From Candidatus Altimarinota bacterium (GTDB lineage Bacteria > Patescibacteriota > Gracilibacteria > JBDHUY01), in NCBI GenBank assembly GCA_039809385.1, contig JBDHUY010000006.1:67527-107526 (forward strand): DNA of 40,000 nucleotides, written 5' to 3'. Under the pieces are notes generated by a model. The model made no database searches. It saw only the letters and a program-made list of their open reading frames with translations, and had not been told where the DNA came from. The position numbers were made by a program, and so were the translations under genes. This document shows positions 8,880-37,783 of this stretch, piece by piece (position 1 is the first letter of the stretch; each line of letters opens with the position of its first letter).

Positions 8880-8884
8880 CCTCT

Positions 8885-16456: not shown

Positions 16457-16573
16457 ACATGCAGATTCATGAATCCCAAATACTGCTTGGGATTTTTGCT
16501 AAGTTATGGACCAGGACGTATTTTTCGTCCTTCTTGCCATAAACTACTAGTCAAATTTGAGCAGAAAGAAAAA

Positions 16574-19790
<3,217 letters not shown>

Positions 19791-23600: not shown

Positions 23601-24522
23601 CGGAGAGCTGAATATCATTGGAAGCGCCGGCAGTCACACGATAGACAACATAGGTTGCCGAAGTGGTATTTGCAGGGACGATCTGAGCATTCGGAGTATT
23701 CGGAGAGAGCTGAATATCCAGAGTACCAGCCTTGGGGATATTGCTCGAGCTGTTGCTGTTACCATTTTTATTGGTATTAACATTGGCAGCGTTGCTGTTA
23801 CCGTTAGTAACAGGAGCATTGCTGTTGCCATTGCCGGCTACGCGATCTTTCGGACTGAGCGCATTCAGAGTGATTTTGGCCATCTGACCGCGTGTCAGTT
23901 TCTGATCGGGACCGAAGGTCGTAGCAGTCAGACCATCAAGAACGCTCTTGTTATAAGAGGTAGTGATGAAATCTTTGGCCCAATGGGAAAGAATATCGGT
24001 AAACGGAGCAGCCGGAGAGATCTTATTTGGAATACCGGCGCAGTTTACAGCGATCTTGGTAAATTCCGCGCGGGTGACAGGATTACCAGGACCAAATTGT
24101 CCGGTAGGAGTACCGGAAGAGGTCTTGTATCCGCTCATCAAACCGGCTTTGGTAACAGTGTAGATATAATCACTGGCCCATGATGCACCGGTTCCCCGAG
24201 CTACGTCAGTGAAGATAACCGGAGGATTGGTAGCATCGAGATCGGAGAGAATACCGACACGCTTGGCCATCTGATAACAGATCTTGGCGGCCTGATCGCG
24301 TGTGACATTATCCTCCGGAAAATATCGATTGCCCTTTTCAGATTTAGGGCCATCGACAAAACCCAGTTTGACCAGTTCATTGATATGATCGTGGGCAAAG
24401 TAGGTAGTAGGAACATCAACAAAGGTGTCGTTGGCCCGGGCGAGCGGAACCGTCAGGACGACTCCCAAGCTGATCATGGCAGTACTAAGAGCTGCCATTA
24501 GCTTTTTAAACCCAATATTCAT
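20674..24522 (-). CDS. S-layer-type surface protein with three N-terminal SLH domains and a large beta-rich body
   Basis: Signal peptide MNIGFKKLMAALSTAMISLGVVLTVPLARA. Three SLH-like units (FVDVPTTYFAHDHINELVKLGFVDG..., FTDVARGTGASWASDYIYTVTKAGLMSGY..., FTDILSHWAKDFITTSYNKSVLDGL...). An Asn-rich linker is followed by about 1000 aa of Thr/Val/Asp/Gly-rich sequence. I moved the start to the ATG at 24522, before the signal peptide. Confidence 0.85.
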   Translation of the reverse strand: MNIGFKKLMAALSTAMISLGVVLTVPLARANDTFVDVPTTYFAHDHINELVKLGFVDGPKSEKGNRYFPEDNVTRDQAAKICYQMAKRVGILSDLDATNPPVIFTDVARGTGASWASDYIYTVTKAGLMSGYKTSSGTPTGQFGPGNPVTRAEFTKIAVNCAGIPNKISPAAPFTDILSHWAKDFITTSYNKSVLDGLTATTFGPDQKLTRGQMAKITLNALSPKDRVAGNGNSNAPVTNGNSNAANVNTNKNGNSNSSSNIPKAGTLDIQLSPNTPNAQIVPANTTSATYVVYRVTAGASNDIQLSGLTLMRVGQGDADDLDKVWVEYNGVRVSNRQSPTTDDRINLIFSPALVVKAGSSIDLVVMAQMDALDAFGNPISGKYNAISLQSANDVASTAAQVTGTFPLTGATMQTSGYLVTRLDYDPQGNDTNYDIGDTDVELGRFDLENLSDNKTVNFKYVAFKNEGSADLEVALANVGLYEAGKKLPVTVQIAGDYLIFDNINSLIDDGKTRTYTIRADIVDGDNNDTIQFRVRYLEDLRAFETSTGFGATGNWSDGATDFLPTYTIEGGTITVSRDPSTPPTQSVALDSDEVTLLVAKLNVGQPFSADGLNLHVCSNQNTPAGVANQLSDIKLYIGDSLIDSISGTATDFVASGTTNPCQGTVANDYILTFDSSYTVTQDTKIKIVADIDNAATTGNRFSAVVRAQDAGDHDFLSGQSAEYTNDENVLPTDTVGQATGNVVTIQNSLVTVSRNDGFTSPEDVVPGVQMETFAKWNIRANDAADLTIREAVIKTFDAAGTDLDTSFIPACYLYIGGSQVGDAEVPNGAAGNATMTFNGLNVPLARNTDKQMELRCDISTGAPGGNVVGFQLNNLDIEDDNSNGATFNPTLPLANTAYFQVQNTGTLTVVRDDSTPDSGFIVAESSGTGVFVLKMTAKNDAVQVREFSLGTVDSSFNTVNDTDGRVSLYELSYPGGSTTAAAVNGLVKFNLGSTSTLKINKDQSVKVTVKAITNDITQAIDTGKVLTLATIPEIVGQGTGFDPTDPGLFDPAATDGVYAISDSLGQELGAGELAVSGFSDDFVITDTKGTFANVTPGSTTLVQGSEQTLYTFVVASDAHNDFDLNRVTFDMSVVAAGVSNITVRDPNNDQLNSVVAMCDDNSDANPTDGELCQITIDLDDSNPSSGETVDRGSSRTFVVKGDVNFASGIYGFGTHSVSTRVAEEAGCNFEAESLAARQADGCFIIWSDNSEPGGTIAAFDHMSGQFFDELPLSFVNLSVSN

Positions 24523-25481
24523 AGTAGAAACATGTTGGGTTAGAGAAATAAAACACCCAAGAAACACCACCTCGTGCTTTCAACGCGTAAAAACGTCGTC
24601 AAAAATGAGAAGGGGCGGGTGAGAGGTTGAAAGAAACGGAAAGATAAGGTTGGTATGATGGGGACACTCTTACATTATTATATGAAAACAATACGCAAGA
24701 GGAATTTCTGGGAGAAATTCTTCTCCCTGTTCCAGCCTTGTAAAAATCACGCGTTTCCTTCGAAAAACAGAAAACTTTCTTTTTGCGGAAATAGCCTTTT
24801 CTTTTCCCCAATTTTCAAAGATCGCTTCTTTTCGGCTTCGAAAATCAATAGAATTCGCAATCTACTGCACAAAAATCTTGTGCACAACTACACGGAGCCG
24901 ATTGTAGCAAATGGGTTTTTCTCTGTCAATAAAAACAAAAACCTTGTTTTCACGTCAGAAAGAGATTGCCCTACCAAATGGTGTTTGCCACCATCAAACC
25001 ATGCAAGATTGCGCTTTTTCCGTGACTCACATGTACAAACGAACCAAAAAGGACTTTGTTTCAAAAAAAATAATTGAAGTATTTTAATATTATTCTTTAA
25101 TAACACTTCTCCGATCCTTGTGGAGAAATAATCATCTAATGAAACCTAGGCCATAATGTGAGATACGTTTATCATATTCCCTCCTTACCGGTCTGCGTTC
25201 TTGCCAAGAAAGCGGTATCAATACGAGACATAGGTCCCTCGCAACGCCAAACGTGCTATTTGTTCGTTTTCTACGCAAAAAGAGCCCCTTACGTTCAAAG
25301 TGTACGCATACCGAAAACCCTTTTTCGTAATGAAAGAACCGACGATCAAGCATGCAGAGCCACCCCTCTGCGAATCTCACACAGTGCCAGATGGAGTGAT
25401 ATCCCCGAGGCTACTTCGATTTCTTTGGATGAAAGCATTTTCCCCTTTGTCACATTTCCTATTAAAAAGAGTGGCAAGTAG

Positions 25482-25761: not shown

Positions 25762-28700
25762 ATGGAAAACAAGAAACCGACGGCAGCGGATATGAAGAGA
25801 AACTGGATTCTGTTCGGACTGATTCTGGGAGTTGCCGCACTGGCCGTGGCAGCCTATGTTATGAATCAAAACGCCCGGCAGTACAAGGGAGCCTCAATTG
25901 ATCCAAACGACATCAACCCCAGCCAAAACTTTACACAAATTGATGGTATCGGCGATACCGGAGGTCTGGGAATTAGTAATGGCTGCCCAAATAGTACGCC
26001 CTTTCTCTGTTCAGATGGGAGTTGTGCTTCAACCATCACTCAATGTGACCAGCTGTCTCAATGTACGACAAACTGTAATGCGGTACCGTCTTCTTTTGCT
26101 ACATCCTGTATCCAGCAAGGCGGAAGTTATTCCTGTGATAGCTGTGGATATGGCTGTGAAGGACTGCCTTCCTCAAGTTCGAGCAGTTCATCCGGTAGTT
26201 CCAGTGGGGGGTTTCAGATCTGTTATGTACAAAGCTGTAATACTTTGGGACAATGTGTAGGAAGAACTCAGAAAGTTGGAATCGGCGATCCTTGTCCAGT
26301 AAGTCAATGCTCCTCGGACGCGGTTTGCGGAATTTTGACCGATCCGTGCGGTGACGGAATTTGCTCGCTCGGTGAAAGTCCCATCAGTTGCCCGTCAGAT
26401 TGTAGTGGCGGGACCAGCAGCGGCGGCACGACCGCATTGTCAATCACCAATCTGAATCCAATTACGAGTCCGGTGGGTACAGCCACGACCGTTACCATCA
26501 CTGGAACCGGCTTCAATTCCACGACGAACACCGTCCGTTTTACTGGAACGAATTTCAATGCCGATATACCAGCAACAGTCCTATCAGGCGGTACTGGTGG
26601 ACAATGCGGAAACAGAATTTGTGAGACCGGTGAGACCAGTCTGAATTGTCCTTCGGATTGTCCTATAAATGCGGCGCAGTATAAATGCTCGTCCAGATTT
26701 ATTCACGGCCAACCGATCGAATTTTGCCGACAATGTACTACCGGAGAAACTGGTTGTACGAGTCAAGAAGAATGTTCACTCAGTTGCGGAACCGGACTTC
26801 TCAACTATAAAGATCAAAAAGATAGCTCTTTTGCCGAGGCCCTTGGGATACCTCGAGCCGAGGCTCTGTCTGGAATCCCACTTCAATGTGGTGACGGAGA
26901 TACAACGATATGTCAAAGCTGTTCCCAAATGGGAGGAGTCGGTTGTTTGCCAAATTGCGGAGGATCGGCCGATACCGGCAGCACTTGCTATGAATGCGCT
27001 AATCCATTAGACGTTTACTGTAAACCCAAAACGATTATCATTCGTCCGTTGGTCTGTGATCCGGCCTGTTCTGCGGGAGAATCCTGCATCGACGGTATAT
27101 GTATTTCTTCCGGCGGAGGTACCAGCGGCGGAGGTACAGGTACCGCGACGCAGCTTCAATTTGTAGTCCCGGACACTGCACCAGTCGGAAGTTATTCTGT
27201 TCGGGTCTATACCGGAGCACCGAATCCGAGGGCACTCGTGCTGAGCAATAGTCTTCCTTATACGATAACTCCGGTTTGCGGCAACAATATGTGCGAAGCC
27301 GGAGAAACGACTACGAGCTGCCCGGCCGACTGCGGAAATACGAATGTTAATTCCGGCAACGGAAATGGTAATGGCAATCCGAATTCCAACAACGGTAACA
27401 ACAATGGAGGATTGATGTGCGATCCCAATAGCATCCAGGCTTTTGGAACCCCCAGCACCGGTCCGGCTCCTCTGAACGTTCAATTCGGTACAACTCCCAG
27501 CAGCACCCAATGCAGCAACAGTTATACTTGCAGTTGGTTCTACGACGACGGTCCGCAGCAGGACGTTTTAACCGGTTGTACGCCGACACATACGTATAGC
27601 AGTGCGGGTACCTACCATCCCACCGTCACTATTACGAATAACAAAGGAGTAACAAGTACAAAGACCATTACGGTTACGGTTACACAGGGGGCGGCACAAT
27701 GCGAGCTACCGGGTGACGTCAATGCCGACAAGAAAGTCGATATTTCTGATCTGGCCAAAATGGCCGACTACCTGAGTTTGGCTATTCCTCTGGACGAGCC
27801 ATTAAGACTTTGCGGCAATGTGGCTCAACCTTGTAATAATGTGCTGGACATTTCGGATCTCTCGACACTGGCCGACTACCTGAGTCTGGCAATTCCGACA
27901 CTGCAAGTCTGTAGCAGCAGCGGCAGCATGAATAACAATACCAATAGTTCTACAGCGACGGTAACACTGTCCTCATTATCGCCAACCAGCGGTCCGGTTG
28001 GAACACTGGTAACGATAACCGGTGCGGGATTTACATTGAGCGGGAATGAAGTGTTCTTTGGAAACGGATATATCCCGAACGTTGCTTCCACGAACAACGG
28101 CACGACGCTCCAGTTCAGGGTTCCGGGCACGCTGGTCCCCAAATGTACCCTACTCCCTACGACAAGTTGTCTCCTGCCTGTCCGGATTACTGTGGAAGGA
28201 GCATACGACATTACTGTTGTAAATGGTCAGGGCGTACAGGGCCAAAAGAGTCTTAGTTTTACCGTAACCTCAGGCACTACAAGCGATACAGGATATAAGT
28301 GTGTCGGGACAACCAATAGTATTCCCCCAAGCTACATCTGCCAAGCCTGTACTATCGGCGAGACCGGCTGCAGTGATCTCAACAGCTGCCAGACAAGCTG
28401 CGGAGCATCAGGTAGTCAATTCAGCAGCGACACCTCGGCTGTCTATTTTCTAACGCAAGAAGCTACTCAGACATATAAAAACGATCTGGATACGCTACCT
28501 CTCTCTGCGGAGTTACAAACTTTGATAACAAACAGCGGTCTCAGTCTGCAGAATTTGAAAGACATCGCCGCGGGAGCCCCTTACGCGCGAGTAATAACCT
28601 ACACTTTGACGATTCCAACGGTCAATATAAAAACACCGGTTGTCTTATTCTATCAGAAAGACAAAAGCGGTACGCTGCGTAGCAACGGAGAACCGGTTAC

Positions 28701-29073
28701 TCTGACACAACCGGCGCCGTACACCTATCAGTTTAAAAAATACTACGCCCGGATCAAGGGAACCTCGCCAGCCAAATATTGTGAGGTAAGCGAAAAGGCG
28801 CCTCAAACTTGTCTGACGGTCAACGGCAGCGAAAAAGTAATCGACGATGCCTATTTTGATACGATCAATAATCGACTGATCCTGGGAAATGACACCTGGG
28901 TCAGTATCGACGGCAGAGAACTGGGATTAACTCAGCATTTGAAGAGTTATTTCTACAAAATCGAAACAAAGTATCCGCTGGATAACCTGATGGGGTGGCT
29001 GTGCTCCATGGAATACGTCGGATTACCGATTACTGACATCCAAAAGGCAAAAGCATGTTCTGCATATCAATAA
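25762..29073 (+). CDS. giant anchored surface protein: Cys-rich modules, IPT/TIG-like and PKD-like domains, dockerin-like module, unique C-terminal domain
   Basis: N-terminal signal anchor WILFGLILGVAALAVAAYV. Three CGxxxCExGExxxxCPxDC modules at 26347-26403, 26605-26661 and 27277-27333. IPT-like LNPITSPVGTATTVTITGTGF and LSPTSGPVGTLVTITGAGF. PKD-like GPAPLNVQF...THTYSSAGTYHPTVTITNNKG. The dockerin-like pair is listed separately. Confidence 0.8.
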   Translation: MENKKPTAADMKRNWILFGLILGVAALAVAAYVMNQNARQYKGASIDPNDINPSQNFTQIDGIGDTGGLGISNGCPNSTPFLCSDGSCASTITQCDQLSQCTTNCNAVPSSFATSCIQQGGSYSCDSCGYGCEGLPSSSSSSSSGSSSGGFQICYVQSCNTLGQCVGRTQKVGIGDPCPVSQCSSDAVCGILTDPCGDGICSLGESPISCPSDCSGGTSSGGTTALSITNLNPITSPVGTATTVTITGTGFNSTTNTVRFTGTNFNADIPATVLSGGTGGQCGNRICETGETSLNCPSDCPINAAQYKCSSRFIHGQPIEFCRQCTTGETGCTSQEECSLSCGTGLLNYKDQKDSSFAEALGIPRAEALSGIPLQCGDGDTTICQSCSQMGGVGCLPNCGGSADTGSTCYECANPLDVYCKPKTIIIRPLVCDPACSAGESCIDGICISSGGGTSGGGTGTATQLQFVVPDTAPVGSYSVRVYTGAPNPRALVLSNSLPYTITPVCGNNMCEAGETTTSCPADCGNTNVNSGNGNGNGNPNSNNGNNNGGLMCDPNSIQAFGTPSTGPAPLNVQFGTTPSSTQCSNSYTCSWFYDDGPQQDVLTGCTPTHTYSSAGTYHPTVTITNNKGVTSTKTITVTVTQGAAQCELPGDVNADKKVDISDLAKMADYLSLAIPLDEPLRLCGNVAQPCNNVLDISDLSTLADYLSLAIPTLQVCSSSGSMNNNTNSSTATVTLSSLSPTSGPVGTLVTITGAGFTLSGNEVFFGNGYIPNVASTNNGTTLQFRVPGTLVPKCTLLPTTSCLLPVRITVEGAYDITVVNGQGVQGQKSLSFTVTSGTTSDTGYKCVGTTNSIPPSYICQACTIGETGCSDLNSCQTSCGASGSQFSSDTSAVYFLTQEATQTYKNDLDTLPLSAELQTLITNSGLSLQNLKDIAAGAPYARVITYTLTIPTVNIKTPVVLFYQKDKSGTLRSNGEPVTLTQPAPYTYQFKKYYARIKGTSPAKYCEVSEKAPQTCLTVNGSEKVIDDAYFDTINNRLILGNDTWVSIDGRELGLTQHLKSYFYKIETKYPLDNLMGWLCSMEYVGLPITDIQKAKACSAYQ
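27712..27897 (+). other. dockerin-like duplicated calcium-binding segment within the 25762 gene
   Basis: GDVNADKKVDISDLAKMADYLSLAIP ... NNVLDISDLSTLADYLSLAIP. This is two F-hand-like repeats with the type I dockerin consensus (GDVNxDxxVxxxDxxxLxxYL); the second calcium loop is degenerate. Confidence 0.6.
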
Positions 29074-29136
29074 ATACTTCCACTTTTCTTCACCAAAAAT
29101 TTCTCATTACCTCTATAATTTAATTCATCGTTTTTT

Positions 29137-32100
29137 ATGAAACAATTGATCGAGAAACAAAGAGTGTGGCTCTACGCCGCACTGGGAGTGGGAGTATTGC
29201 TCCTGGCCGCCATCGCCTACTTTTTCACAAACGGGCGGCTGCTGACGTCAAACCTGATTCAGGCCACCGGATATCCGGTGAGCGTAGGGACCGTAGAAAG
29301 CCAGGTGACTGTCGGACCCAATCAAAGCTTTACGGTAAACTTGAAAGCCACCGGTGCGACTACCGCACGACCGCTGAAAGGCGTAAAACTGACACTTGAC
29401 CTCCCGAGTTCTTTGACAGGGAGCACTCCAACATTTAGCGCTGCCCCCGGGGTATCGGTCCAGGGAACCCCGCGGCTGGTCTCTGGCAATAAATTTGTAG
29501 TGTTAATGACTACCAGCATTACGAACGCCGATGCCCCACTGGGAACATTAACATTTCAGACCGGAGCAACCGTTACCAATAATACGCAGGTGTCTACTTT
29601 TAACCAGACCGGGACGCTTCTGGTCAGCGAAATATCGGGAACCGACGGAGTAGACCCGAACAGCTTTGTCACCTTCAATGTTCCCAACGGCGTATTGTTT
29701 AACTTGGTCGCCGGCAGCGGCGGGAACAATCAAAACACCAATAGTGGCGGCAATACGGGACCGTTTACCATCACCCATCGGGTTGTTAGCGGACAGGGAA
29801 CGATTAACCCCGCCAGTCCGATCACCGTCAACGGTGGCGACAGTGTCACCCTGGTTATCACACCCGGAACATGTAATGTACTGACATCTTTGACAGACAA
29901 CGGTGTCAATACTATGAACCGGGTCAGCCCGGTCGCGGCACTGGTCGCCGGTAACAGTTTTAATTATACGCTCGGAAATATTGATCAAAATCACGAAGTG
30001 CTGGTTTCGTTCGGAACCGATCCGGCTTGCGGAAACGGGAATGTCAATGCAGGAAATAATAACTTGAATGGCTTGAATGCGCCGGTCATTACCGCAATCA
30101 ACCCGACATCGGGGCCAACCGGCACAACCGTAACACTTACGGGTATTAATTTCAGTACTACCGGAAATACCGTTCGACTGACGAATGACGGCACCGGCGC
30201 TACTACCAATATTGTGCCTTCCGCGCAGAATACAACGTCGATCACCTTTACGGTTCCGGCCGGACTCCCGGTCGGTCCGTATACCGTCACGGTAGAAAAC
30301 GCCAACAATTTGACCAGTAACGGAGTGGCGTTTACCATCACGACCGGTGGTGGTGGCAATAATAATAACCAGAACGGTAATAACGGCAATACTAACCAGA
30401 ATAATGGAAACGGAAACGGCACTTTCACGATCGTCTTGAATCCGACTCAGGGACCGGTCGGAACTCCGGTTACAATCAGTACACCTGGCGGATTCCCCAA
30501 CGGTTCGACCAGCACAGTTACCTTTACCTGTCCGAACAATACTTCTGCCACGATCCAGGTAACGGCCTCAAACGGCACTCTGGACTTCAATGTTCCGGGA
30601 GGTCTGGCACAAGGCACCTGTACGGTAACCGTTACTAACGGTAACGGTACAGGTTCGGGGACGTTCACCATTACGGCCGGCGGAAACGGCAACCAGAACA
30701 ATGGGAACGGCTCATTGGGAGCAGTTACATTGACAAATATCAATCCGAGTAACACGAACTCCGGCCAAACCATTACGCTGACCGGTACCGGCTTCGGGAC
30801 GGCTGCCGGACAGACCAATACAGTCGTATTTGTTCCCACCGGTTACTGTCCGGGTCAGACCACGGTAACTTCTGCGGGAAACGCCAGCTCGGCTACCAGT
30901 ATGACCACCGTCGTACCGAGTTTGCGAGATTGTACCTATAACGTCTTTGTCCAGGTAAGCAACGGAACCCAGACAGTGAACAGCAACACCCTGCCCATTA
31001 CTATCGGTTCGGGTTCGTCCAACGGGAATGGAAACGGTAACGGCAATCCGAGCAATACCAGTGTCGGCATTACTCGCCTGGATCCGATCCAGGGACCGGT
31101 AACCACCGCGCTCGATATCTACGGATTCGGATTCGGTACTACGAACAACAATACGGTCTTCTTTGTCCCCGGCGGAAATTGTCCGGCTTCCCAGACCACC
31201 GTGGCGGTCAACAATGTCGATTCTACAGGCACATTCATCGACAACCTGGATATTCCCGATACCCTGGCAGTTTGTACCTACAGCGTCTATCTGTCTACGG
31301 GAGGCGTAAACAGCAACCCTGCCAAGTTTAACGTAACGGCCGCCGGAACCAATCCGGTTCAGCCGGCGACTATCAGCAATGTACAACCGAATCCAAGTCC
31401 TCAGGGTGGTCCGCTGACCATCACCGGTACGGGTTTCAATCCGGTTAATACAGTTACCATCACCTGCGGCGCTCAGACCGCGACTCTGACCAATGTACTG
31501 TCCAACGGCAATGAAATCAGGATCACGTTACCGGCAAATCTGGTCGGATCGTGTACCGTGGTAGTCGATAACGGCAACGGCCCGAGTAACGCTTTCCCGT
31601 TTGTCATTACTGCCGGCAACGCTAATCAAAACGGCAATAACAATAACACAAATGGCGGCAACGGAGGCAACAACAACAATAACAACGGCGGTCCCAACGT
31701 GCCTCAGAACGTGCGTGCCTTCGGCGATCCCCAGAGCAATCAGGTCATCGTGATCTGGGATCCGGTCACGAATGCTACCGGCTATAATATTTTCCGCATC
31801 AATGACGGACAAACGTGTGCTCAAGGACAGCAAGTAGGCAGCGTCGGAGCTCAAAATACGTTTACCTATAACGAAGGGACACCCGGAACATATCGTTACT
31901 GTGTTTCGGCAATCGTAGCGGGGACCGAAAGCGGTCGCGGCGGACCTTCCAACGCCGTCACAGTCGGAACAAACATGAACGGTTTCGTCGACGGTGGCAT
32001 CAATCCCGGCTTCCTGATCCTGCCGTTGAACTCGATTACCGGCATTCCGCTTACCGCCGACAACAATATCCCGGGCAATACGATTACTTGGACATTCCGC

Positions 32101-32352
32101 GGATTTAACCGCGACGGGACGGTCAATAACGGTCTGGTAACCGTAACTCCGACAACCGGAAGAACCACTACGGTAAAGCCGGTATTCGTTACCGCCAATG
32201 AAAACGGAGGTGTGGTGTTCGTCACAGCAACCGGAGATAACGGTACCTTCTCGACTATCCCGGTAATTGTGTGGAGACGCGGCGATACCGACGGAGATTT
32301 CGTTACCGGACCTGTCGATCAGAATAACGTGGTACGCGGATGGAATTACTAG
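29137..32352 (+). CDS. giant anchored surface protein: cohesin-like N-terminal domain, at least five IPT/TIG-like modules, FN3-like and Ig-like domains, C-terminal half-dockerin-like tail
   Basis: Signal anchor VWLYAALGVGVLLLAAIAYFF. A cohesin-like beta domain spans about 29269-29631. Repeats of the form INPTSGPTGTTVTLTGINF, LNPTQGPVGTPVTIS, LDPIQGPVTTALDIYGFGF, VQPNPSPQGGPLTITGTGF. FN3-like PQNVRAFGDPQSNQVIVIWDPVTNATGYNIFR. The tail reads GDTDGDFVTGPVDQNNVV. Confidence 0.8.
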   Translation: MKQLIEKQRVWLYAALGVGVLLLAAIAYFFTNGRLLTSNLIQATGYPVSVGTVESQVTVGPNQSFTVNLKATGATTARPLKGVKLTLDLPSSLTGSTPTFSAAPGVSVQGTPRLVSGNKFVVLMTTSITNADAPLGTLTFQTGATVTNNTQVSTFNQTGTLLVSEISGTDGVDPNSFVTFNVPNGVLFNLVAGSGGNNQNTNSGGNTGPFTITHRVVSGQGTINPASPITVNGGDSVTLVITPGTCNVLTSLTDNGVNTMNRVSPVAALVAGNSFNYTLGNIDQNHEVLVSFGTDPACGNGNVNAGNNNLNGLNAPVITAINPTSGPTGTTVTLTGINFSTTGNTVRLTNDGTGATTNIVPSAQNTTSITFTVPAGLPVGPYTVTVENANNLTSNGVAFTITTGGGGNNNNQNGNNGNTNQNNGNGNGTFTIVLNPTQGPVGTPVTISTPGGFPNGSTSTVTFTCPNNTSATIQVTASNGTLDFNVPGGLAQGTCTVTVTNGNGTGSGTFTITAGGNGNQNNGNGSLGAVTLTNINPSNTNSGQTITLTGTGFGTAAGQTNTVVFVPTGYCPGQTTVTSAGNASSATSMTTVVPSLRDCTYNVFVQVSNGTQTVNSNTLPITIGSGSSNGNGNGNGNPSNTSVGITRLDPIQGPVTTALDIYGFGFGTTNNNTVFFVPGGNCPASQTTVAVNNVDSTGTFIDNLDIPDTLAVCTYSVYLSTGGVNSNPAKFNVTAAGTNPVQPATISNVQPNPSPQGGPLTITGTGFNPVNTVTITCGAQTATLTNVLSNGNEIRITLPANLVGSCTVVVDNGNGPSNAFPFVITAGNANQNGNNNNTNGGNGGNNNNNNGGPNVPQNVRAFGDPQSNQVIVIWDPVTNATGYNIFRINDGQTCAQGQQVGSVGAQNTFTYNEGTPGTYRYCVSAIVAGTESGRGGPSNAVTVGTNMNGFVDGGINPGFLILPLNSITGIPLTADNNIPGNTITWTFRGFNRDGTVNNGLVTVTPTTGRTTTVKPVFVTANENGGVVFVTATGDNGTFSTIPVIVWRRGDTDGDFVTGPVDQNNVVRGWNY

Positions 32353-32473
32353 ACCACCGTACAACATACCGAGAGACTCTTCCTCTTCGCTATCGCTCAG
32401 ACAGAGTCAGAGTGACAGACCATCCACTCCCCGATCTCCCCACTCCGTTCTCCTTGCTAACCCCTTTAGCCCT

Positions 32474-33055
32474 ATGAAAAAACAATTCGTTGCCGTACTG
32501 GCCCTCTCAATGCTGCTAGCCGGCTGCGGTCAGTCCCAGCCTCAACGTCCGCAGACATCCGGAACGCCGGCAACTTCTACAACCAATGAAACCGGGAAGG
32601 ATGCTGGTCCCAAAGTCAAAAACTCCGATACAGGAAAGTTCCACGCCGTTTTCTCGCTGTCTAACGACAAACCGACCGTACGCGCCGGCGAAGAAATCGA
32701 AGTAGTGTTGCGGGTTTCAAACCTGGAAAAGCCGGTCTCTACCGTAACCGCATATCTGATGTTTAATAAAGACGTTTTAAACGCCGAAAGTGTAGACTTT
32801 AGCGATTCTGCCTTTCCGGTCGTATTCCGTAATAAAGTCGACAATGAAAGCGGAATGGTAGAAATGTCGAGCAGCAGCCGTACCGGCGTAACCGGCGACC
32901 AAAGCTATTTTGCCAAAGTGAAGTTCAAAGCGAAACAGGCGGGAACAAGCGACATTTTGTTCAACGCCGAAAAGCTGGCAGTACTCCTGGAAGACAACAC
33001 CGACGTGAAACCCGAAACAACCGATCTGCCCAAGTTGTCGGTAACTGTTCAATAA
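32474..33055 (+). CDS. cohesin-like domain lipoprotein
   Basis: Lipobox MKKQFVAVLALSMLLAGC. A single beta-sandwich-like domain follows: VRAGEEIEVVLRVSNLEKPVSTVTAYLMFNKDVLNAESVDF...ESGMVEMSSSS...YFAKVKFKAKQAGTSDILF, which matches the cohesin sequence pattern. I moved the start from 32267 to the ATG at 32474. Confidence 0.7.
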   Translation: MKKQFVAVLALSMLLAGCGQSQPQRPQTSGTPATSTTNETGKDAGPKVKNSDTGKFHAVFSLSNDKPTVRAGEEIEVVLRVSNLEKPVSTVTAYLMFNKDVLNAESVDFSDSAFPVVFRNKVDNESGMVEMSSSSRTGVTGDQSYFAKVKFKAKQAGTSDILFNAEKLAVLLEDNTDVKPETTDLPKLSVTVQ

Positions 33056-33176
33056 ATACGACCTTCTCCCTTTTAGGGAGAGGACAGGCAAGGAGGTACT
33101 TCCCTGTCCCTTCCTTAAAAAATAGAACATTGCTGTTCTTAAAGGAAACACATCTTATTCTCAAACAAAAATATAT

Positions 33177-34367
33177 ATGAAAAAGAGCTTCCAACTGGTG
33201 CTCGCGTCTCTGCTACTGTTGTTCGTCCAGAGTACGCCGGCTTTGGCCGCTCCGGATGCCGTTCTTTCTTTTACCCAAACTCCGGGAACGATTTGCGTGG
33301 GCCGGGACACAGCCTTTTCTATCCGGGTAAATACCGGATCGAATAATAATGTCTCAACCGTTACACCGTATTTCGAATATGATCCGGCATTTTTCGCTCT
33401 CCAGGGAACTGTTTCGACGAGCGGCGGAGCGTTTCCGGAAGTATACCGGAACAATCCTACCAGCAGCGGATTGGTAGAATTGTCGATGAGCGGGCAGCCC
33501 CAATCGGGAAGCAATTTGCTCGTGGCCAGTTTTAGCTTGCGTCCTACGCGTTCCGGTACCACGACGTTACGATTTGACTCAAAAGCGACCGTACTGATCA
33601 GTGACAATACCCCGGTGCTGGGATCTGCTCAAACCTTATCAATTACAATAAATCAAAACTGTTCGGGATCATCGTCCGGCGGAGGGTCTTCCGGAGGATC
33701 GGGTGGTGGAGGCTCCTCAGGTGGAGGGGGAGGCGGCGGAACGATCAGCCATCTGGCCTGTGTAAATAACCAGTGTACCCGGGTTGCCGGATTGGGCGCC
33801 GACGAATGCTCCCGCGTGGGAACCGGCTGCAGCTCTTCCGGTTCGTCTTCCGGCAGCAGCGGCAGCGGAACAGGTACCGGCAGTAGTTCGGGGTCGTCGT
33901 CGGGAAGCGGCGGAGTATCGCCCGACGAACTCGATCCGCAGTGCGAACAACCTGTTAACGTACACGCTGCGTCCAATAACGACGGCAGCGTAGAACTGCG
34001 CTGGGAGAACAACGATTCGCGCGTCAGTGCGTTCGAAGTACGTTACGGCACAGAAAGCAGCAATTATACAAAAACCGAATTTACCGCCAATATCCGCTCC
34101 CTGCTCATTACTGGCCTTGAAAAAGGTCGAACCTATTTTTTCTCCGTAGTAGCCTTCGGAGAATGCAATGCCAGCAACCCCAGCAACGAGGTGAGTGTTC
34201 AGGCACAAGCCGGATCGACCGGTATCGGATCCGGGAAACCGGCCGCCGGAACGGGAGCACTCCCCCCTAGAAGTACCTCGGCCGGAGCGGCATTGACCAT
34301 TCCGGCATTAATCGTGACGGGAATAACCACGTTTCTCGTGAGAAAGAAAAAGAAACCTTCAGCCTGA
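33177..34367 (+). CDS. secreted cohesin-like / FN3-like protein with a C-terminal sorting-signal-like anchor
   Basis: Signal peptide ending ALA-AP. Cohesin-like FSIRVNTGSNNNVSTVTPYFEYDPAFFALQG...GLVELSMSG...LVASFSLRPTRSGTTTLRF. A Gly/Ser linker, the 4-Cys module ISHLACVNNQCTRVAGLGADECSRVGTGC, and FN3-like PVNVHAASNNDGSVELRWEN. C-terminus: ALPPRSTSAG, a hydrophobic helix, then RKKKK. Confidence 0.75.
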   Translation: MKKSFQLVLASLLLLFVQSTPALAAPDAVLSFTQTPGTICVGRDTAFSIRVNTGSNNNVSTVTPYFEYDPAFFALQGTVSTSGGAFPEVYRNNPTSSGLVELSMSGQPQSGSNLLVASFSLRPTRSGTTTLRFDSKATVLISDNTPVLGSAQTLSITINQNCSGSSSGGGSSGGSGGGGSSGGGGGGGTISHLACVNNQCTRVAGLGADECSRVGTGCSSSGSSSGSSGSGTGTGSSSGSSSGSGGVSPDELDPQCEQPVNVHAASNNDGSVELRWENNDSRVSAFEVRYGTESSNYTKTEFTANIRSLLITGLEKGRTYFFSVVAFGECNASNPSNEVSVQAQAGSTGIGSGKPAAGTGALPPRSTSAGAALTIPALIVTGITTFLVRKKKKPSA

Positions 34368-34410
34368 TCTTTTTTTATCCGTTTTGTCGTTTTACTTTTA
34401 CATCTCACGT

Positions 34411-36930
34411 ATGGACACAAGCCAACCACAAACAAGCGGATCTCACCCCGGAGCACCGGCCGGCGTTAAATTCATTCATCTCGGTACTACACCCGCTTCT
34501 CATGCAGAGATGCAAAATCGAGACGATCTGAGAGAGGTTACCCCGAAAGTGAATACACAGAGCGCCGGCGAGAGTATACCACCGATAATACCGTCAGAAG
34601 GAAAAGGAACCGGTACCCCTCAACATCCCAAGCGCAAAAAAACCGGATTGGTAGCAGCGGTACTGGCGGGAGGAATTCTGGCGATAGGTGCTTTGTTTTT
34701 TACTCAGTCGTCGAACTTCTTTCGAGCCGACATTAACCCGACCGGCGATATTGCGTTTTTTCTCGAAAGCTCGAATCCGACAATCTGCGGAAACGGAGGA
34801 GTTTCAGACATTTCGATTGTGGTAACCGGCCAAACGCCGATTTCGACCGCTACAGCTTACTTGAATTATCCGGCAAACCTGGTCCAGGTAACTGCACCGA
34901 CAGTAACTGTACCGGCCGCCAGTCCATTTAGCGTAGTATTTCGCAACGAAATCGACTCAAACACGGGGCGGATCGAATTCTCGGTCAGTCCTGATGGTCA
35001 AGCACCGGCAACGTCGCCGGGGAGCGGCATAACTATTGGTACCTTCACGGTACGATCACTGCAAGAGAGCGGAACAGCCAACATAAGTTTCGATCTGGGA
35101 AAATCGGTAGCATTGGAACCGGGCAATATCAACTTGCTGCAGAGCGCCACCGGACTAAGTTTGACACTTGCCGATGCCAACTGTAATACGAACGGGAATC
35201 AGAATCAAAACGGGAACGGCAATAACAACGTAAACAATAACGGCAACAGCAATCAAAATGCTAACGCAAACCAAAACGGCAATGGCAATACCAACATGAA
35301 CGGAGGAAGCTCCTCCGGAGGCGGTTCTTCCGGCGGAGGAAATAATAACAATATCAACCAGAATCAAAACGGGAATACCAATGGCAATATCGACACGAAT
35401 GGAAATGCAAACGGCAATCAGAATAGCAACGTGAATACCAACACGAACGGAGGAAGCTCCTCCGGAGGCGGTTCTTCCGGCGGAGGAAATAATAACAATA
35501 TCAACCAGAATCAAAACGGGAATACCAACGGCAATATCGACACGAATGGAAATGGAAACGGCAACCAGAATAGCAACGTGAATACCAACACGAACGGAGG
35601 AAGCTCCTCCGGAGGCGGTTCTTCCGGCGGAGGAAATAACAACAATACCAATCAAAATCAGAACACCAATGCCAATAATGGGAATGGCAATACGAACTCG
35701 GGCATTACGCTCAATCCGCTGAATCCGTCTTCGGGTCCGGTAGGAACGACAGTAGTAGCCACGGGTACGGGATTTTCCCCCACCGGCAATACGATCACGC
35801 TCACCTGCAGCAATAATCAGATTCGTACCATTTCGAATGTTTCCAGTACGAACAACGGGACCCGCCTGGTCTTTGTCATTCCTTCTAATATAACCGTCGG
35901 CAGTACCTGCAGTGTTACCGTCACCAATAGCAACGGACAAACCAGTAACGCCCAGCCTTTTACCGTCACGTCTCCGTCTTCCAGCAGTGGTGGCGGTGGT
36001 TCGTCGGGCGGAGGCGGCGGGGGTGGTGGTGGAGGTCGCATTACCCACCTGGCGTGTTTTAACAATCAGTGCGTGCTGGCAACCGGTCCCGGTCCGGACG
36101 AATGTACCAGAGCCGGAATCGCTTGTACTTCAAGCGGCAGTAGCGGCGGCGGTACCACCAATCGTGCACCGGTATTTACCAATATCCAGCCGGCACCGTT
36201 TAGCGTCGGCAATCCCATAAATCCACCGATCCGCTTCGAAATAACCGACCCCGACAACGACGACATTGATCGTAACAGCATCCGGCTGGTCATCGACGGA
36301 GTCCAAGTAACCCCGACGATTACCGGCACCGATAATAAACGGATTTTCGTTTCGTACCAACCGAACAATTTGACTACCCCGCGACGGGTCTATGTACAGC
36401 TACAGGCAGCCGATACTCGTAATCCGGCGGCCGTCGGCACCTACGATTACTGGTTCATTATCGGTAATGACGAAAGCCGCGCTACGCTGTGTCCTACTCC
36501 CGGGAATCTGCGGGGAAGTGTTAGCGGCCAGAATATTACTTTAACCTGGGATCCGAGCCCCGATACCAATGTCACGGGCTATACCCTCTATATCGGAGAA
36601 TCGCAAGATAATCTGAACCGGGTAGAACAATTGGGCGCGATTACAAGTATAACGCTCTCGGGTTTTACCGCCGGGCGCCAGTACTATTTTGTTTTAACTG
36701 CGAGTGGCTTGTGCAGCGAAAGCGACTATTCGAATATGATCTCGTTGACTGCCGGGCAAGGACCGGCCAGCGGAACCTACCGGCCGCCTCGTACCAATCC
36801 GGCCTATCCGCCGGGGTATACGCCCCCGGTAAAATTTCCCGATTCGCTACCAAAGACCGGCCCGCCTCTGCTCATTTCCGCAGGCATCGGCGCCCTCTAC
36901 TGGGCAATGCGTCGGAAGAAGAAAAAATAA
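34411..36930 (+). CDS. membrane/cell-wall-anchored cohesin-like protein with Asn-rich tandem repeats, IPT-like and FN3-like modules and an LPKTG sorting signal
   Basis: TM helix LVAAVLAGGILAIGALFF. A cohesin-like domain spans about 34746-35175 (ISIVVTGQTPISTATAYLNYPANLVQV...GRIEFSVSP...IGTFTVRSLQESGTANISF). 49-aa repeats. IPT-like LNPSSGPVGTTVVATGTGF. 4-Cys module ITHLACFNNQCVLATGPGPDECTRAGIAC. FN3-like PGNLRGSVSGQNITLTWDP. C-terminus: LPKTG, a hydrophobic stretch, then RRKKKK. The start could be TTG at 34384 or ATG at 34411. Confidence 0.8.
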   Translation: MDTSQPQTSGSHPGAPAGVKFIHLGTTPASHAEMQNRDDLREVTPKVNTQSAGESIPPIIPSEGKGTGTPQHPKRKKTGLVAAVLAGGILAIGALFFTQSSNFFRADINPTGDIAFFLESSNPTICGNGGVSDISIVVTGQTPISTATAYLNYPANLVQVTAPTVTVPAASPFSVVFRNEIDSNTGRIEFSVSPDGQAPATSPGSGITIGTFTVRSLQESGTANISFDLGKSVALEPGNINLLQSATGLSLTLADANCNTNGNQNQNGNGNNNVNNNGNSNQNANANQNGNGNTNMNGGSSSGGGSSGGGNNNNINQNQNGNTNGNIDTNGNANGNQNSNVNTNTNGGSSSGGGSSGGGNNNNINQNQNGNTNGNIDTNGNGNGNQNSNVNTNTNGGSSSGGGSSGGGNNNNTNQNQNTNANNGNGNTNSGITLNPLNPSSGPVGTTVVATGTGFSPTGNTITLTCSNNQIRTISNVSSTNNGTRLVFVIPSNITVGSTCSVTVTNSNGQTSNAQPFTVTSPSSSSGGGGSSGGGGGGGGGGRITHLACFNNQCVLATGPGPDECTRAGIACTSSGSSGGGTTNRAPVFTNIQPAPFSVGNPINPPIRFEITDPDNDDIDRNSIRLVIDGVQVTPTITGTDNKRIFVSYQPNNLTTPRRVYVQLQAADTRNPAAVGTYDYWFIIGNDESRATLCPTPGNLRGSVSGQNITLTWDPSPDTNVTGYTLYIGESQDNLNRVEQLGAITSITLSGFTAGRQYYFVLTASGLCSESDYSNMISLTAGQGPASGTYRPPRTNPAYPPGYTPPVKFPDSLPKTGPPLLISAGIGALYWAMRRKKKK
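35302..35660 (+). repeat. 147-bp in-frame tandem repeat (two near-identical copies plus a diverged partial third)
   Basis: Copies start at 35302, 35449 and 35596. By direct comparison copies 1 and 2 differ at 3 of 147 positions. They encode GGSSSGGGSSGGGNNNNINQNQNGNTNGNIDTNGN(A/G)NGNQNSNVNTNTN. Confidence 0.85.
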
Positions 36931-37072: not shown

Positions 37073-37363
37073 ATGAGAACTACAGCAACTGCGAAACGAC
37101 GGGTACACGTCGTTTTCTCACAAGATCTTATTGACGAGATCGACAAGCTGGTCGGAAAACGGAAACGCAGTGCTTTCATGAGTGAGGCGGCTAGGCGGAA
37201 GATGATATCATTGCGGCAATTACGAGCTTTGGACCAAGCTATCGGAGCCTGGAAAGACGAAGATCACCCTGAGTGGCAAAACGGATCGTCGGAATGGATA
37301 AGAGCTATGCGTCAAGAAAGCGAAAGCAGGTTCCAAGAACTTGAAAAACGCAGAGATTCCTAA
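37073..37363 (+). CDS. ribbon-helix-helix (CopG/VapB-like) antitoxin
   Basis: RRVHVVFSQDLIDEIDKLVGKRKRSAFMSEAARRKM is an RHH beta-strand/helix/helix pattern. The gene is small and lies directly upstream of a PIN gene. Confidence 0.65.
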   Translation: MRTTATAKRRVHVVFSQDLIDEIDKLVGKRKRSAFMSEAARRKMISLRQLRALDQAIGAWKDEDHPEWQNGSSEWIRAMRQESESRFQELEKRRDS

Positions 37364-37393
37364 CTGCTTTCTGTATAATAATTTCCGCATAGT

Positions 37394-37783
37394 ATGGCGC
37401 TTTTTTTGCTCGATAGCAACATCATAATCGATGCTCTAAACAGAAAAAATAACCAGGATAAAACAATACGCACATTGTTATTTCAAGAGCATGTTTTAGC
37501 CAGTTGTCCTATCACGATCTCGGAAGTATATGCTGGTATGCGCGATCATGAACGTGGGCGCATCGAAATATTGTTTGACTCCCTGCTCTTTCTGGAAATC
37601 ACAGAGCAGATCGCCCGTCAGTCCGGATTGCTGAAACGAGAATGGCAGCAAAAAGGGATAACTCTCTCGCTTCCCGATGCAACTTTGGCAGCGGTAGCCA
37701 TTGAAAACAATGCCATATTCGTAACCCAGAATGTGAAAGATTTTCCCATGCCTGAAATACACCTCTATCGGGATCTGCTTTAA
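37394..37783 (+). CDS. vapC: PIN-domain ribonuclease toxin (VapC-like)
   Basis: The N-terminus LLDSNIIIDAL carries the first PIN acidic residue. 129 aa, with a late ...LSLPDATLAAVAIENNAIFVTQNVKDF block typical of VapC. Confidence 0.75.
   Translation: MALFLLDSNIIIDALNRKNNQDKTIRTLLFQEHVLASCPITISEVYAGMRDHERGRIEILFDSLLFLEITEQIARQSGLLKREWQQKGITLSLPDATLAAVAIENNAIFVTQNVKDFPMPEIHLYRDLL

What the first reader, a model, noticed from the sequence alone, without database searches (positions are those of the whole stretch)
25762..36930. Enzyme-free cohesin/dockerin-like surface scaffold: five co-oriented genes with complementary modules and several kinds of anchor
Seen in sequence: five consecutive plus-strand genes encode only structural modules.
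- Gene 1 (25762-29073) carries a duplicated dockerin-like segment (27712-27897) and a unique C-terminal domain of about 230 aa.
- Gene 2 (29137-32352) has a cohesin-like N-terminal domain, at least five IPT/TIG-like modules and a C-terminal half-dockerin-like GDTDGDFVTGPVDQNNVV.
- Genes 3-5 (32474, 33177, 34411) each carry one cohesin-like domain.
- Genes 3-5 are tethered differently: a lipobox; a signal peptide plus a C-terminal sorting-like signal; and a TM helix plus LPKTG.
- I could not recognise any glycoside hydrolase, protease or other catalytic motif in any of the five.

Established knowledge: calcium-dependent cohesin-dockerin pairs assemble cellulosomes. Cohesin-like and dockerin-like modules outside cellulosomes are predicted widely but are functionally almost uncharacterised.

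Inference: this locus could build a hierarchical, self-assembling cell-surface structure in which the dockerin proteins plug into membrane- or wall-anchored cohesins. Its role would be adhesion or cell-cell attachment rather than polysaccharide degradation.
Basis: partly seen in the sequence, partly recalled or inferred. Interest (0 to 1): 0.8.

Follow-up and report, generated by a model that had tools for sequence, protein, structure and literature searches.

The report
Enzyme-free cohesin–dockerin cell-surface gene cluster
An uncultivated bacterium carries five adjacent genes for large surface proteins, one with a dockerin "plug" and three (perhaps four) with a cohesin "socket" tied to the cell in different ways, so it looks like cellulosome-style snap-together parts reused to fasten a non-enzymatic surface fibre to the cell.

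Summary
The five plus-strand genes are real, and most of the module calls hold.

- **Cohesins:** G3 has a Pfam Cohesin domain (45 bits, cut-off 24). Its AlphaFold model (pLDDT 91) matches only cohesins in the PDB. G4 and G5 carry homologous cohesins (BLASTP 5e-12 and 5e-9 to G3).
- **Dockerin:** G1 has an internal two-repeat dockerin. It scores just below the Pfam cut-off because its second calcium loop is degenerate. The only full-length orthologue, from a different sample, has a canonical dockerin (39.7 bits).
- **G2:** It has five TIG modules. Its N-terminal "cohesin" is supported only indirectly: the orthologue scores 21 bits (E=3.5e-4) and G2 itself gives no hit. Its "half-dockerin" tail is only an EF-hand-like calcium loop.
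- **Anchors:** The lipobox, the signal peptide plus C-terminal helix, and the helix plus LPKTG are all present. G1 and G2 also have N-terminal membrane helices.
- **Enzymes:** No catalytic domain was detected, but about 900 residues remain unassigned.

My reading is a non-cellulosomal cohesin–dockerin anchoring system that probably displays an adhesin-like fibre. No binding was tested, and the hierarchical assembly is not shown. This is a new variant of a known kind, in a lineage with almost no sequenced relatives.

The parts
25762..29073 (+). G1, 1103 aa, 66 Cys: dockerin-bearing surface protein
   Evidence: ORF. Pfam PKD, TIG and sub-threshold Dockerin_1. Full-length 48%-identical orthologue P0008.
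25804..25863 (+). G1 N-terminal hydrophobic helix (aa 15-34): signal anchor or long signal peptide
   Evidence: Hydropathy scan. Conserved in P0008.
26443..27270 (+). G1 TIG domain split by a Cys-rich insert of about 185 aa (halves at aa 228-275 and 460-503)
   Evidence: A local TIG HMM matches positions 3-47 and 49-87 in two separate places. Conserved in P0008.
27442..27681 (+). G1 PKD domain (aa 561-640)
   Evidence: Pfam PKD_4, 40.6 bits. PDB collagenase PKD hits.
27700..27912 (+). G1 dockerin (aa 647-717). It has two repeats with near-identical helices (DISDLAKMADYLSL and DISDLSTLADYLSL). The first Ca loop, DVNADKKVDISD, is canonical and the second is degenerate. Four conserved Cys are present.
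   Evidence: Pfam Dockerin_1 at 16.2 and 22.0 bits, below the cut-off of 22.9. The orthologue scores 39.7 bits. The profile hits only PDB dockerins.
27961..28275 (+). G1 second TIG domain (aa 734-838)
   Evidence: Pfam TIG. Local HMM, 101 bits.
28372..29073 (+). G1 orphan C-terminal domain (aa 871-1103), function unknown
   Evidence: Only P0008 is related, at 41% identity and E=5e-27. No Pfam hit. The single-sequence AF2 model is unusable, pLDDT 37.
29137..32352 (+). G2, 1071 aa: N-terminally anchored Ig-repeat fibre
   Evidence: ORF. Pfam TIG. An orthologue follows the G1 orthologue on L003.
29269..29706 (+). G2 N-terminal beta domain (about aa 45-190), possibly a divergent cohesin
   Evidence: No Pfam hit. 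hhalign against the locus cohesins gives 0.1%. The 61%-identical orthologue hits Cohesin at 21.2 bits, E=3.5e-4.
30085..31620 (+). G2 five TIG modules (aa 317-404, 430-515, 530-625, 645-736, 745-828)
   Evidence: Pfam TIG, 60.9 bits, 3 stretches. The local HMM finds 5 domains.
32284..32319 (+).
   Evidence: Regex and shuffles give P=2e-4 for a hit in the last 25 aa. No Dockerin or EF-hand HMM hit.
32474..33055 (+). G3, 193 aa: lipoprotein with one cohesin. Lipobox LLAGC at nt 32513-32527 (lipid-modified Cys18 at 32525-32527). Cohesin at nt 32639-33052.
   Evidence: Pfam Cohesin at 45-46 bits, above the cut-off of 24.1. AF2 pLDDT 91.2. The top 50 Foldseek hits are all cohesins. Lipobox read directly. 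Weak lipoprotein signal-peptide HMM hits.
33177..34367 (+). G4, 396 aa. Signal peptide (aa 1-24). Cohesin at nt 33249-33662. Gly/Ser linker. 4-Cys module at nt 33744-33830. fn3 at nt 33948-34199. C-terminal LPPRS, hydrophobic helix and KKKK at nt 34260-34364.
   Evidence: Cohesin against G3: BLASTP 5e-12, hhalign 97.4%. fn3, 40.5 bits. The tail gives a weak Gram_pos_anchor hit, 12.8 bits against a cut-off of 20. Hydropathy.
34411..36930 (+). G5, 839 aa. Helix at nt 34639-34710. Cohesin at nt 34744-35184. Asn/Gly linker containing a 147-nt tandem repeat at nt 35287-35664. TIG at nt 35704-35976. 4-Cys module at nt 36040-36126. Ig-like domain at nt 36160-36423. fn3 at nt 36496-36735. LPKTG sorting signal at nt 36847-36927.
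   Evidence: Cohesin against G3: BLASTP 5e-9. TIG. fn3, 31.3 bits. Big_5 weak. Tandem repeat. LPKTG and helix.

Best explanation
This is a non-cellulosomal cohesin-dockerin anchoring system in the envelope of an uncultivated bacterium.

Components:
- G1 is a long, disulfide-rich protein built from Ig-like modules. It has one internal type-I-like dockerin and an orphan C-terminal 'tip' domain.
- G3, G4 and G5 each present one cohesin. G2 probably does too.
- The cohesins are tethered in different ways: G3 by a lipid, G4 by a C-terminal membrane helix, G5 by a sortase-type LPKTG signal, and G2 by an N-terminal helix.

Proposed mechanism (inferred, not shown):
- The G1 dockerin, folded around calcium, inserts its helices onto the 8-3-6-5 sheet of one of these cohesins.
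- This fastens or braces G1 on the membrane or wall, so that its tip and the TIG/fn3 fibres project from the cell.

No enzyme is carried. The output is most likely attachment to another cell or surface, or envelope architecture, rather than polymer degradation.

Shown: the identity of the modules, their folds, the anchors and the gene order.
Inferred: pairing between the modules, calcium dependence, and the adhesion role.
For: Cohesins:
- G3 scores above the Pfam cut-off.
- The G3 model is confident, with pLDDT 91.2 and pTM 0.84.
- Its top 50 PDB matches are all cohesins, with TM 0.66-0.81. They include non-cellulosomal cohesins from C. perfringens and A. fulgidus.
- G4 and G5 are homologous to G3.

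Dockerin:
- The first Ca loop is canonical.
- The orthologue scores 39.7 bits.
- PDB hits are exclusively dockerins.
- The two helices are nearly identical, as in dual-binding type I dockerins (sequence).

Signs that the modules belong together:
- The 40-kb window holds exactly one dockerin and three verified cohesins, all inside this five-gene run.
- Residues invariant among the three roughly 30%-identical cohesins fall in predicted strands 3, 5, 6 and 8 (14 of 42 positions). Only 3 of 38 fall in strands 1, 2, 4, 7 and 9 (Fisher p=0.006). Strands 3, 5, 6 and 8 form the dockerin-binding sheet of known cohesins, which is consistent with a shared ligand.
- The G1-G2 order is conserved in the only related contig.

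No enzymes:
- No catalytic family was found by Pfam, NCBIfam or PDB searches.

Precedent:
- Sortase-anchored single-cohesin ScaE is described in PMC12484212.
- Non-cellulosomal cohesin/dockerin surface proteins in ANME archaea are described in PMC9012536.
Against: - No binding was predicted or measured.
- G1's own dockerin scores below the Pfam cut-off, and its second calcium loop (NVAQPCNNVLDISD) has lost key Asp residues. It may bind weakly, in one orientation only, or not at all.
- G1 has its own N-terminal membrane helix, so it does not obviously need a cohesin to stay on the cell.
- Cohesin-dockerin pairs are often encoded apart, so the true partners may lie elsewhere in the genome, which I could not see.
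- About 900 residues have no assignment and could hide an activity: G1 aa 40-226, 276-459 and 871-1103, and G2 aa 195-316 and 940-1047.
- Conservation evidence rests on a single partial relative.
- No sortase gene lies in the window.
Confidence: 0.55

Rival explanations
1. The co-located modules do not pair with each other. The anchored cohesins G3-G5 are general docking sites for dockerin proteins encoded elsewhere in the genome, possibly including enzymes or substrate-binding proteins. G1's degenerate dockerin has another partner or is vestigial.
For: - G1's dockerin is sub-threshold and its second loop is degenerate.
- G1 has its own membrane helix.
- In cellulosomal and ANME systems the partners are usually dispersed, and dockerins sit on diverse proteins (PMC9012536).
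- Only 40 kb of a contig of at least 107 kb was visible.
Against: - This is the only dockerin in 40 kb, and it lies directly upstream of all the cohesins.
- The dockerin helices are well conserved between G1 and its 48%-identical orthologue, which argues against decay.
Confidence: 0.2
2. This is a conventional enzyme or toxin display system whose catalytic part is unrecognised. The orphan G1 C-terminal domain or its Cys-rich regions would be a novel hydrolase or effector delivered at the cell surface.
For: - About 233 aa at the G1 C-terminus and about 370 aa of Cys-rich sequence have no family assignment.
- The structure prediction of the tip failed, so a catalytic fold cannot be excluded.
Against: - No Pfam, NCBIfam or PDB similarity to any enzyme.
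- The weak distant hits of the tip domain are to repeated Ig-like or beta-sandwich segments.
- The low-confidence model is mostly beta strands. This looks more like a binding module.
Confidence: 0.12
3. These are independent envelope and S-layer-zone structural proteins. The cohesin folds would serve as generic beta-sandwich spacers or carbohydrate- or wall-binding modules, and the dockerin as a calcium-binding stabiliser, with no plug-socket assembly at all.
For: - The cluster sits next to an SLH-domain protein and near a TSP3 calcium-repeat protein, so this is an envelope-protein neighbourhood.
- Many predicted non-cellulosomal cohesins have no known partner (own knowledge of Peer et al. 2009, cited in PMC6487960 and PMC9012536).
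Against: - Conserved residues concentrate on the sheet that binds dockerins in known cohesins.
- Every experimentally tested cohesin family, including the archaeal and C. perfringens ones that are the best structural matches, binds a dockerin (PMC9012536 and own knowledge).
Confidence: 0.13

Closest known systems
Cellulosome anchoring scaffoldins with a single cohesin (Ruminococcus flavefaciens ScaE, sortase/LPXTG-anchored; Clostridium thermocellum OlpA/OlpC, SLH-anchored)
   Same: - One cohesin on a cell-bound protein receives a dockerin-bearing partner.
- G5 has the same logic as ScaE: a cohesin plus an LPXTG signal.
- The OlpA and OlpC cohesins are among the structural matches (PMC12484212).
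   Different: - No dockerin-bearing enzymes, no CBM and no multi-cohesin primary scaffoldin.
- The anchors include a lipobox and a C-terminal membrane helix. The review I read lists only sortase and SLH as typical anchors.
- The SLH domains sit on a separate neighbouring protein.
- The dockerin is internal, in a protein that has its own membrane helix.
Non-cellulosomal cohesin-dockerin pairs of Clostridium perfringens (GH84C/GH33 cohesins, FIVAR-dockerin toxin complexes)
   Same: - These give the best TM-scores to the G3 model: 2jh2 and 2vo8 at TM 0.79-0.81.
- 2w1n is a cohesin-fn3 double module, like G4 and G5, which also combine a cohesin with fn3.
   Different: - The C. perfringens modules are appended to glycoside hydrolases and assemble enzyme complexes. 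Here no enzyme is detected.
- Sequence identity is only 16-18%.
Archaeal non-cellulosomal cohesin/dockerin proteins (Archaeoglobus fulgidus; ANME archaea)
   Same: - The organisms are not cellulolytic.
- The proteins are single-cohesin.
- A proposed role is attaching proteins to the outer cell layer and mediating cell-cell contact (PMC9012536).
- A. fulgidus cohesin 2xdh matches the G3 model at TM 0.75.
   Different: - This host is a bacterium with lipobox and LPXTG anchors.
- The modules are in one compact co-oriented cluster.
- The dockerin sits on a Cys-rich Ig-repeat fibre rather than on ABC-transporter binding proteins or S-layer proteins.
Ruminococcus bromii amylosome
   Same: A cohesin-dockerin assembly used outside cellulose degradation (PMC4611034, title and abstract seen).
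   Different: The amylosome organises GH13 amylases. This locus has no detectable glycoside hydrolase.

Membership tests
Cohesin (Pfam PF00963) | Profile-HMM score above the curated cut-off (24.1 bits) | tested here: met
   - G3 scores 45.1-46.4 bits.
- G4 and G5 give no direct Pfam hit. They are homologous to the G3 domain: BLASTP 5e-12 and 5e-9, hhalign 97.4%.
Cohesin (Pfam PF00963) | Nine-stranded beta jelly-roll fold | tested here: met
   The G3 AF2 model (pLDDT 91.2) is all-beta with 9-10 strands. The top 50 Foldseek PDB hits are all cohesins, best E=5e-9. G4 and G5 were not modelled separately.
Cohesin (Pfam PF00963) | Membership of the G2 N-terminal domain | tested here: inconclusive
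   - G2 gives no hit at E<=10.
- hhalign against the locus cohesins gives 0.1%.
- PDB profile search finds no cohesin.
- The orthologue domain scores 21.2 bits, E=3.5e-4, below the cut-off.
Cohesin (Pfam PF00963) | Binds a dockerin on the 8-3-6-5 face | not testable with these tools
   Indirect evidence only: invariant residues are enriched in predicted strands 3, 5, 6 and 8 (p=0.006).
Dockerin type I (Pfam PF00404) | Profile-HMM score above the cut-off (22.9 bits) | tested here: not met
   G1 scores 16.2 bits in the whole protein and 22.0 bits as an isolated segment, with the first repeat only. The colinear segment of orthologue P0008 scores 39.7 bits over positions 1-56 of 57, so homology is secure even though G1 itself falls short.
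Dockerin type I (Pfam PF00404) | Two tandem F-hand repeats, each with a 12-residue Ca loop (D/N at positions 1, 3, 5, 9, 12) followed by a helix | tested here: inconclusive
   - Repeat 1, DVNADKKVDISD, is fully canonical.
- Repeat 2 in G1 is NVAQPCNNVLDISD, with a 2-aa insertion and loss of D1 and D5.
- P0008 has the canonical DVTCDGRIDISD in repeat 2.
- Both helices are intact.
Dockerin type I (Pfam PF00404) | Calcium-dependent folding and cohesin binding | not testable with these tools
   Needs ITC or pull-down with and without EDTA, or a co-fold.
Dockerin (G2 C-terminal tail as 'half-dockerin') | HMM or helix similarity to a dockerin repeat | tested here: not met
   No Dockerin_1 or EF-hand hit at E<=10. 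Only the loop DTDGDFVTGPVD is present. The following QNNVVRGWNY does not resemble the G1 helices. The loop fits a TSP3-like calcium motif equally well (compare).
Cellulosome (or amylosome-type enzyme complex) | Dockerin-bearing catalytic subunits | tested here: not met
   The only dockerin protein in the window has no catalytic family hit.
Cellulosome (or amylosome-type enzyme complex) | Scaffoldin with multiple cohesins and/or a CBM | tested here: not met
   Each cohesin protein has a single cohesin, and no CBM was detected.
Sortase substrate (LPXTG cell-wall sorting signal) | LPXTG motif, then a hydrophobic stretch, then a positively charged tail at the C-terminus | tested here: met
   - G5 ends LPKTGPPLLISAGIGALYWAMRRKKKK. 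The HMMs did not report it, and no sortase gene lies in the window.
- G4 has LPPRS instead of LPXTG, with a weak Gram_pos_anchor hit of 12.8 bits against a cut-off of 20. It is better read as a C-terminal membrane helix.
Bacterial lipoprotein | Signal peptide ending in a lipobox L-[AS]-[GA]-C | tested here: met
   G3 begins MKKQFVAVLALSMLLAGC. Several lipoprotein signal-peptide models hit aa 1-40 weakly.

The most novel reading that the evidence does not exclude
The cluster is a self-contained, enzyme-free attachment organ of a deeply divergent, possibly symbiotic bacterium.

- A disulfide-stapled dockerin latches a Cys-rich fibre with an orphan tip domain onto four cohesins.
- The cohesins sit at different depths of the envelope: lipid, membrane and wall.
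- G2 acts as a cohesin-plus-calcium-loop adaptor.

If so, cohesin-dockerin chemistry would be used here for cell-cell or host adhesion rather than for enzyme display.
Probability: 0.2. Interest if true: 0.7.

Novelty: new variant of a known kind. Interest (0 to 1): 0.45.

Why it matters
Cohesin and dockerin modules outside cellulosomes are predicted in many bacteria and archaea, but almost none has a known partner or role. Here the candidate plug and all the candidate sockets lie in one 11-kb cluster with no enzyme attached. That gives an unusually clean test case with five small recombinant domains. If binding is shown, it would:

- document cohesin-dockerin pairing as a general envelope-assembly or adhesion device;
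- add lipoprotein and membrane-helix tethering to the known sortase and SLH anchors;
- give a function to proteins that otherwise have almost no relatives among about 15 billion predicted proteins.

Tried and rejected
**Homologue and locus searches**
- Word-index homologue searches with the G1 tip domain and with the three-cohesin profile found only the query organism.
- The genome-contig scan with the G1/P0008 alignment chose uninformative N-terminal patterns and found nothing.
- A second genome-contig scan used the adjacent rsmA gene to pull in syntenic loci. It returned 74 loci at 26-40% identity, mostly Patescibacteria and Campylobacterota MAGs.
  - None carries a related cohesin upstream.
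  - Neither synteny nor firm taxonomy could be obtained. The pattern-based sampling is biased, so I do not claim a phylum.
- Two metagenome scans gave nothing or only generic dockerins in unrelated proteins (L078, L079).

**Structure**
- Single-sequence AF2 of the G1 tip domain was unusable, with pLDDT 37. I made no fold search with it.

**Other**
- Promoter and terminator scans were at chance level.
- An exact-match lookup of G4 and literature searches for the SRA runs gave nothing.
- I considered a sortase-assembled pilus. I rejected it because there is no pilin motif, no sortase gene nearby, and only one protein with a true LPXTG.
Full report
**The observation**

- G1: 25762-29073, 1103 aa
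- G2: 29137-32352, 1071 aa
- G3: 32474-33055, 193 aa
- G4: 33177-34367, 396 aa
- G5: 34411-36930, 839 aa

The gaps between them are 63, 121, 121 and 43 nt. Promoter and terminator consensus scans were at chance level. I therefore call this a co-oriented cluster and not a proven operon.

**Cohesins**

- G3 matches Pfam Cohesin at 45-46 bits, against a cut-off of 24.1.
- G4 and G5 give no direct Pfam hit. Their N-terminal domains are homologous to G3's. G3 against G5 gives BLASTP 5e-9. G3 against G4 gives 5e-12, and hhalign of a G3+G5 profile against G4 gives 97.4%.
- An AlphaFold2 model of the G3 domain, using only the three paralogues as its alignment, was confident: pLDDT 91.2, pTM 0.84, all-beta.
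- All top 50 Foldseek matches in the PDB are cohesins (best E=5e-9, TM 0.66-0.81).
- The highest TM-scores are to the non-cellulosomal cohesins of Clostridium perfringens (2jh2, 2vo8). The Archaeoglobus fulgidus cohesin 2xdh matches at TM 0.75.

Residues invariant among the three roughly 30%-identical paralogues are unevenly placed. Fourteen of 42 positions in predicted strands 3, 5, 6 and 8 are invariant, against 3 of 38 in strands 1, 2, 4, 7 and 9 (Fisher p=0.006). From established knowledge, the 8-3-6-5 sheet is the dockerin-binding face of known cohesins. I infer a shared ligand. The strand equivalence rests on strand order only, because I had no model coordinates.

**Dockerin**

- G1 aa 647-717 contains two repeats.
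- The first has a canonical calcium loop, DVNADKKVDISD.
- The two helices are nearly identical: DISDLAKMADYLSL and DISDLSTLADYLSL.
- The second loop is degenerate: NVAQPCNNVLDISD.
- Pfam Dockerin_1 scores 16.2 bits in the whole protein and 22.0 bits for the isolated segment, just under the cut-off of 22.9.

An exhaustive HMMER search found a single full-length orthologue, P0008 (1322 aa, 48% identical), from another sample. Its colinear segment is a canonical dockerin, with GDVNGDNRVDISD and GDVTCDGRIDISD, and scores 39.7 bits over the whole model. A profile of the two segments hits only dockerins in the PDB (16 of 16 at E<=1, best 3.9e-4).

The G1 segment is therefore a true dockerin with one decayed calcium site. 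Four Cys (C647, C684, C691, C717) are conserved in both proteins. They may form disulfide staples, which is my inference.

**G2**

- Five TIG modules are confirmed.
- The N-terminal domain gave no cohesin signal in G2 itself. Pfam found nothing. hhalign against the locus cohesins gave probability 0.1%. A PDB profile search found no cohesin.
- The 61%-identical domain of the G2 orthologue on contig L003 hits Pfam Cohesin at 21.2 bits, E=3.5e-4, below the cut-off of 24.1. I rate G2 as a probable but unproven divergent cohesin.
- The tail loop DTDGDFVTGPVD is unlikely by chance (P=2e-4 in the last 25 residues). It has no dockerin HMM support, and its following residues do not resemble the G1 helices. 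It could equally be a TSP3-like calcium motif, like those in the protein at 14036-15427.

**Anchors (read directly from the sequence)**

- G3 has the lipobox LLAGC.
- G4 has a signal peptide ending ALA|AP. Its C-terminus has LPPRS, a hydrophobic helix and KKKK. This gives only a weak Gram_pos_anchor hit, and I read it as a C-terminal membrane helix.
- G5 has a helix at aa 77-100 and a textbook LPKTG, hydrophobic stretch and RRKKKK.

**Other modules**

- G1: a PKD domain, a second TIG, and a first TIG split by a Cys-rich insert of about 185 aa.
- G4 and G5: fn3 domains. G2 has only a weak fn3-like region.
- G4 and G5: a shared 29-aa four-Cys module.
- G5: an Asn/Gly linker encoded partly by a 147-nt tandem repeat.

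**No enzyme found**

Pfam, NCBIfam and PDB sequence searches of whole proteins and of every unassigned segment gave no catalytic family. About 900 residues remain unassigned. The G1 C-terminal domain has one relative among 1.84 billion representatives. Its single-sequence model failed, with pLDDT 37.

**Context and relatives**

- The whole 40-kb window contains exactly one dockerin and three verified cohesins, all in this cluster.
- A three-SLH-domain protein (20674-24570, minus strand) diverges from G1.
- In the only related contig, L003 (7.5 kb), the G1 orthologue is followed by the G2 orthologue. The contig ends before G3-G5 could appear.
- All five proteins are singletons at 90% identity in the 15-billion-protein collection.
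- Scans of genome and metagenome collections found no further related block.
- The neighbouring rsmA is at most 40% identical to anything retrieved, with Patescibacteria MAGs on top. I leave the phylum open.

**Most likely mechanism**

This is a non-cellulosomal cohesin-dockerin anchoring system. I infer the following:
- The G1 dockerin plugs into the cohesins of G3, G4 and G5, and perhaps G2.
- This fixes or braces a disulfide-rich fibre of Ig-like modules, with its orphan tip domain, to lipid, membrane and wall anchor points.
- The function is adhesion or envelope architecture.

There is no multi-cohesin scaffoldin, and the only candidate adaptor (G2) is unverified. What is shown is one plug and several alternative sockets.

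**Comparison with known systems**

- The logic matches single-cohesin anchoring scaffoldins such as sortase-anchored ScaE (PMC12484212).
- The fold is closest to the C. perfringens and archaeal non-cellulosomal cohesins.
- Non-cellulolytic cohesin/dockerin surface proteins have been proposed to mediate attachment in ANME archaea (PMC9012536).
- A dockerin-domain envelope protein is essential in a cultivated member of the Patescibacteria (PMC10633639).
- The differences here are the compact, enzyme-free, self-contained cluster, the lipobox and membrane-helix tethers, and the internal dockerin in a protein that carries its own anchor.

I rate it a new variant of a known kind. Interest is moderate. 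It is a clean, directly testable case for the long-open question of what non-cellulosomal cohesin-dockerin pairs do.

Noticed in passing
window 16007-19790 (- strand): 23S rRNA (16572-19790) is 3219 nt against a 2925-nt Rfam model, about 290 nt extra. 5S lies at 16007-16122. There is no 16S rRNA and no tRNA anywhere in the 40-kb window, so the rRNA operon appears unlinked.
   Followed up: no
window 20674-24570 (- strand): A 1298-aa protein with three SLH domains and a long beta-rich region, probably an S-layer or wall-bound protein. It diverges from G1 across a 1.2-kb ORF-poor spacer. No SLH protein lies in the ~2 kb upstream of the G1 orthologue on the related contig L003.
   Followed up: partly
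window 14036-15427 (+ strand): A 463-aa protein with 12 DxDxDG-type calcium loops (bacterial TSP3 repeats) plus a PKD domain. It is another calcium-binding surface protein near the cluster.
   Followed up: partly
window 4622-9736 (+ strand): A run of isoprenoid or carotenoid-type genes: flavin amine-oxidase/desaturase-like, squalene/phytoene synthase, polyprenyl synthetase and UbiA prenyltransferase. It is followed by a GT2 glycosyltransferase at 9987-10694.
   Followed up: no
window 37073-37783 (+ strand): A small ORF (96 aa, no family hit) followed by a PIN-domain protein. This looks like a VapBC-like toxin-antitoxin pair, lying between G5 and rsmA.
   Followed up: no
window 26443-27270 (G1 aa 228-503): The first TIG domain of G1 is interrupted after its first half by a Cys-rich insert of about 185 aa. 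The insert contains CGxxxCExGET...CPxDC motifs. This nested-domain arrangement is conserved in orthologue P0008.
   Followed up: partly
window 33744-33830 (G4) and 36040-36126 (G5); P0008 aa ~285-313: A 29-aa four-Cys mini-module (I[ST]HLAC.NNQC...G.G..EC.R.G..C) is shared by G4 and G5. It is also present in the G1 orthologue P0008 but absent from G1 itself.
   Followed up: no
window 35287-35664 (G5 linker): A 147-nt tandem repeat, 2.6 copies at 96% identity, encodes the Asn/Gly/Ser-rich spacer between the G5 cohesin and its TIG. It is a likely length-variable linker.
   Followed up: no
window 27700-27912 (G1 dockerin): Four Cys are conserved between G1 and P0008: two flank the dockerin (C647, C717) and two bracket the second calcium loop (C684, C691). 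They may form disulfide staples that compensate for the degenerate second calcium site. This is inference only.
   Followed up: no
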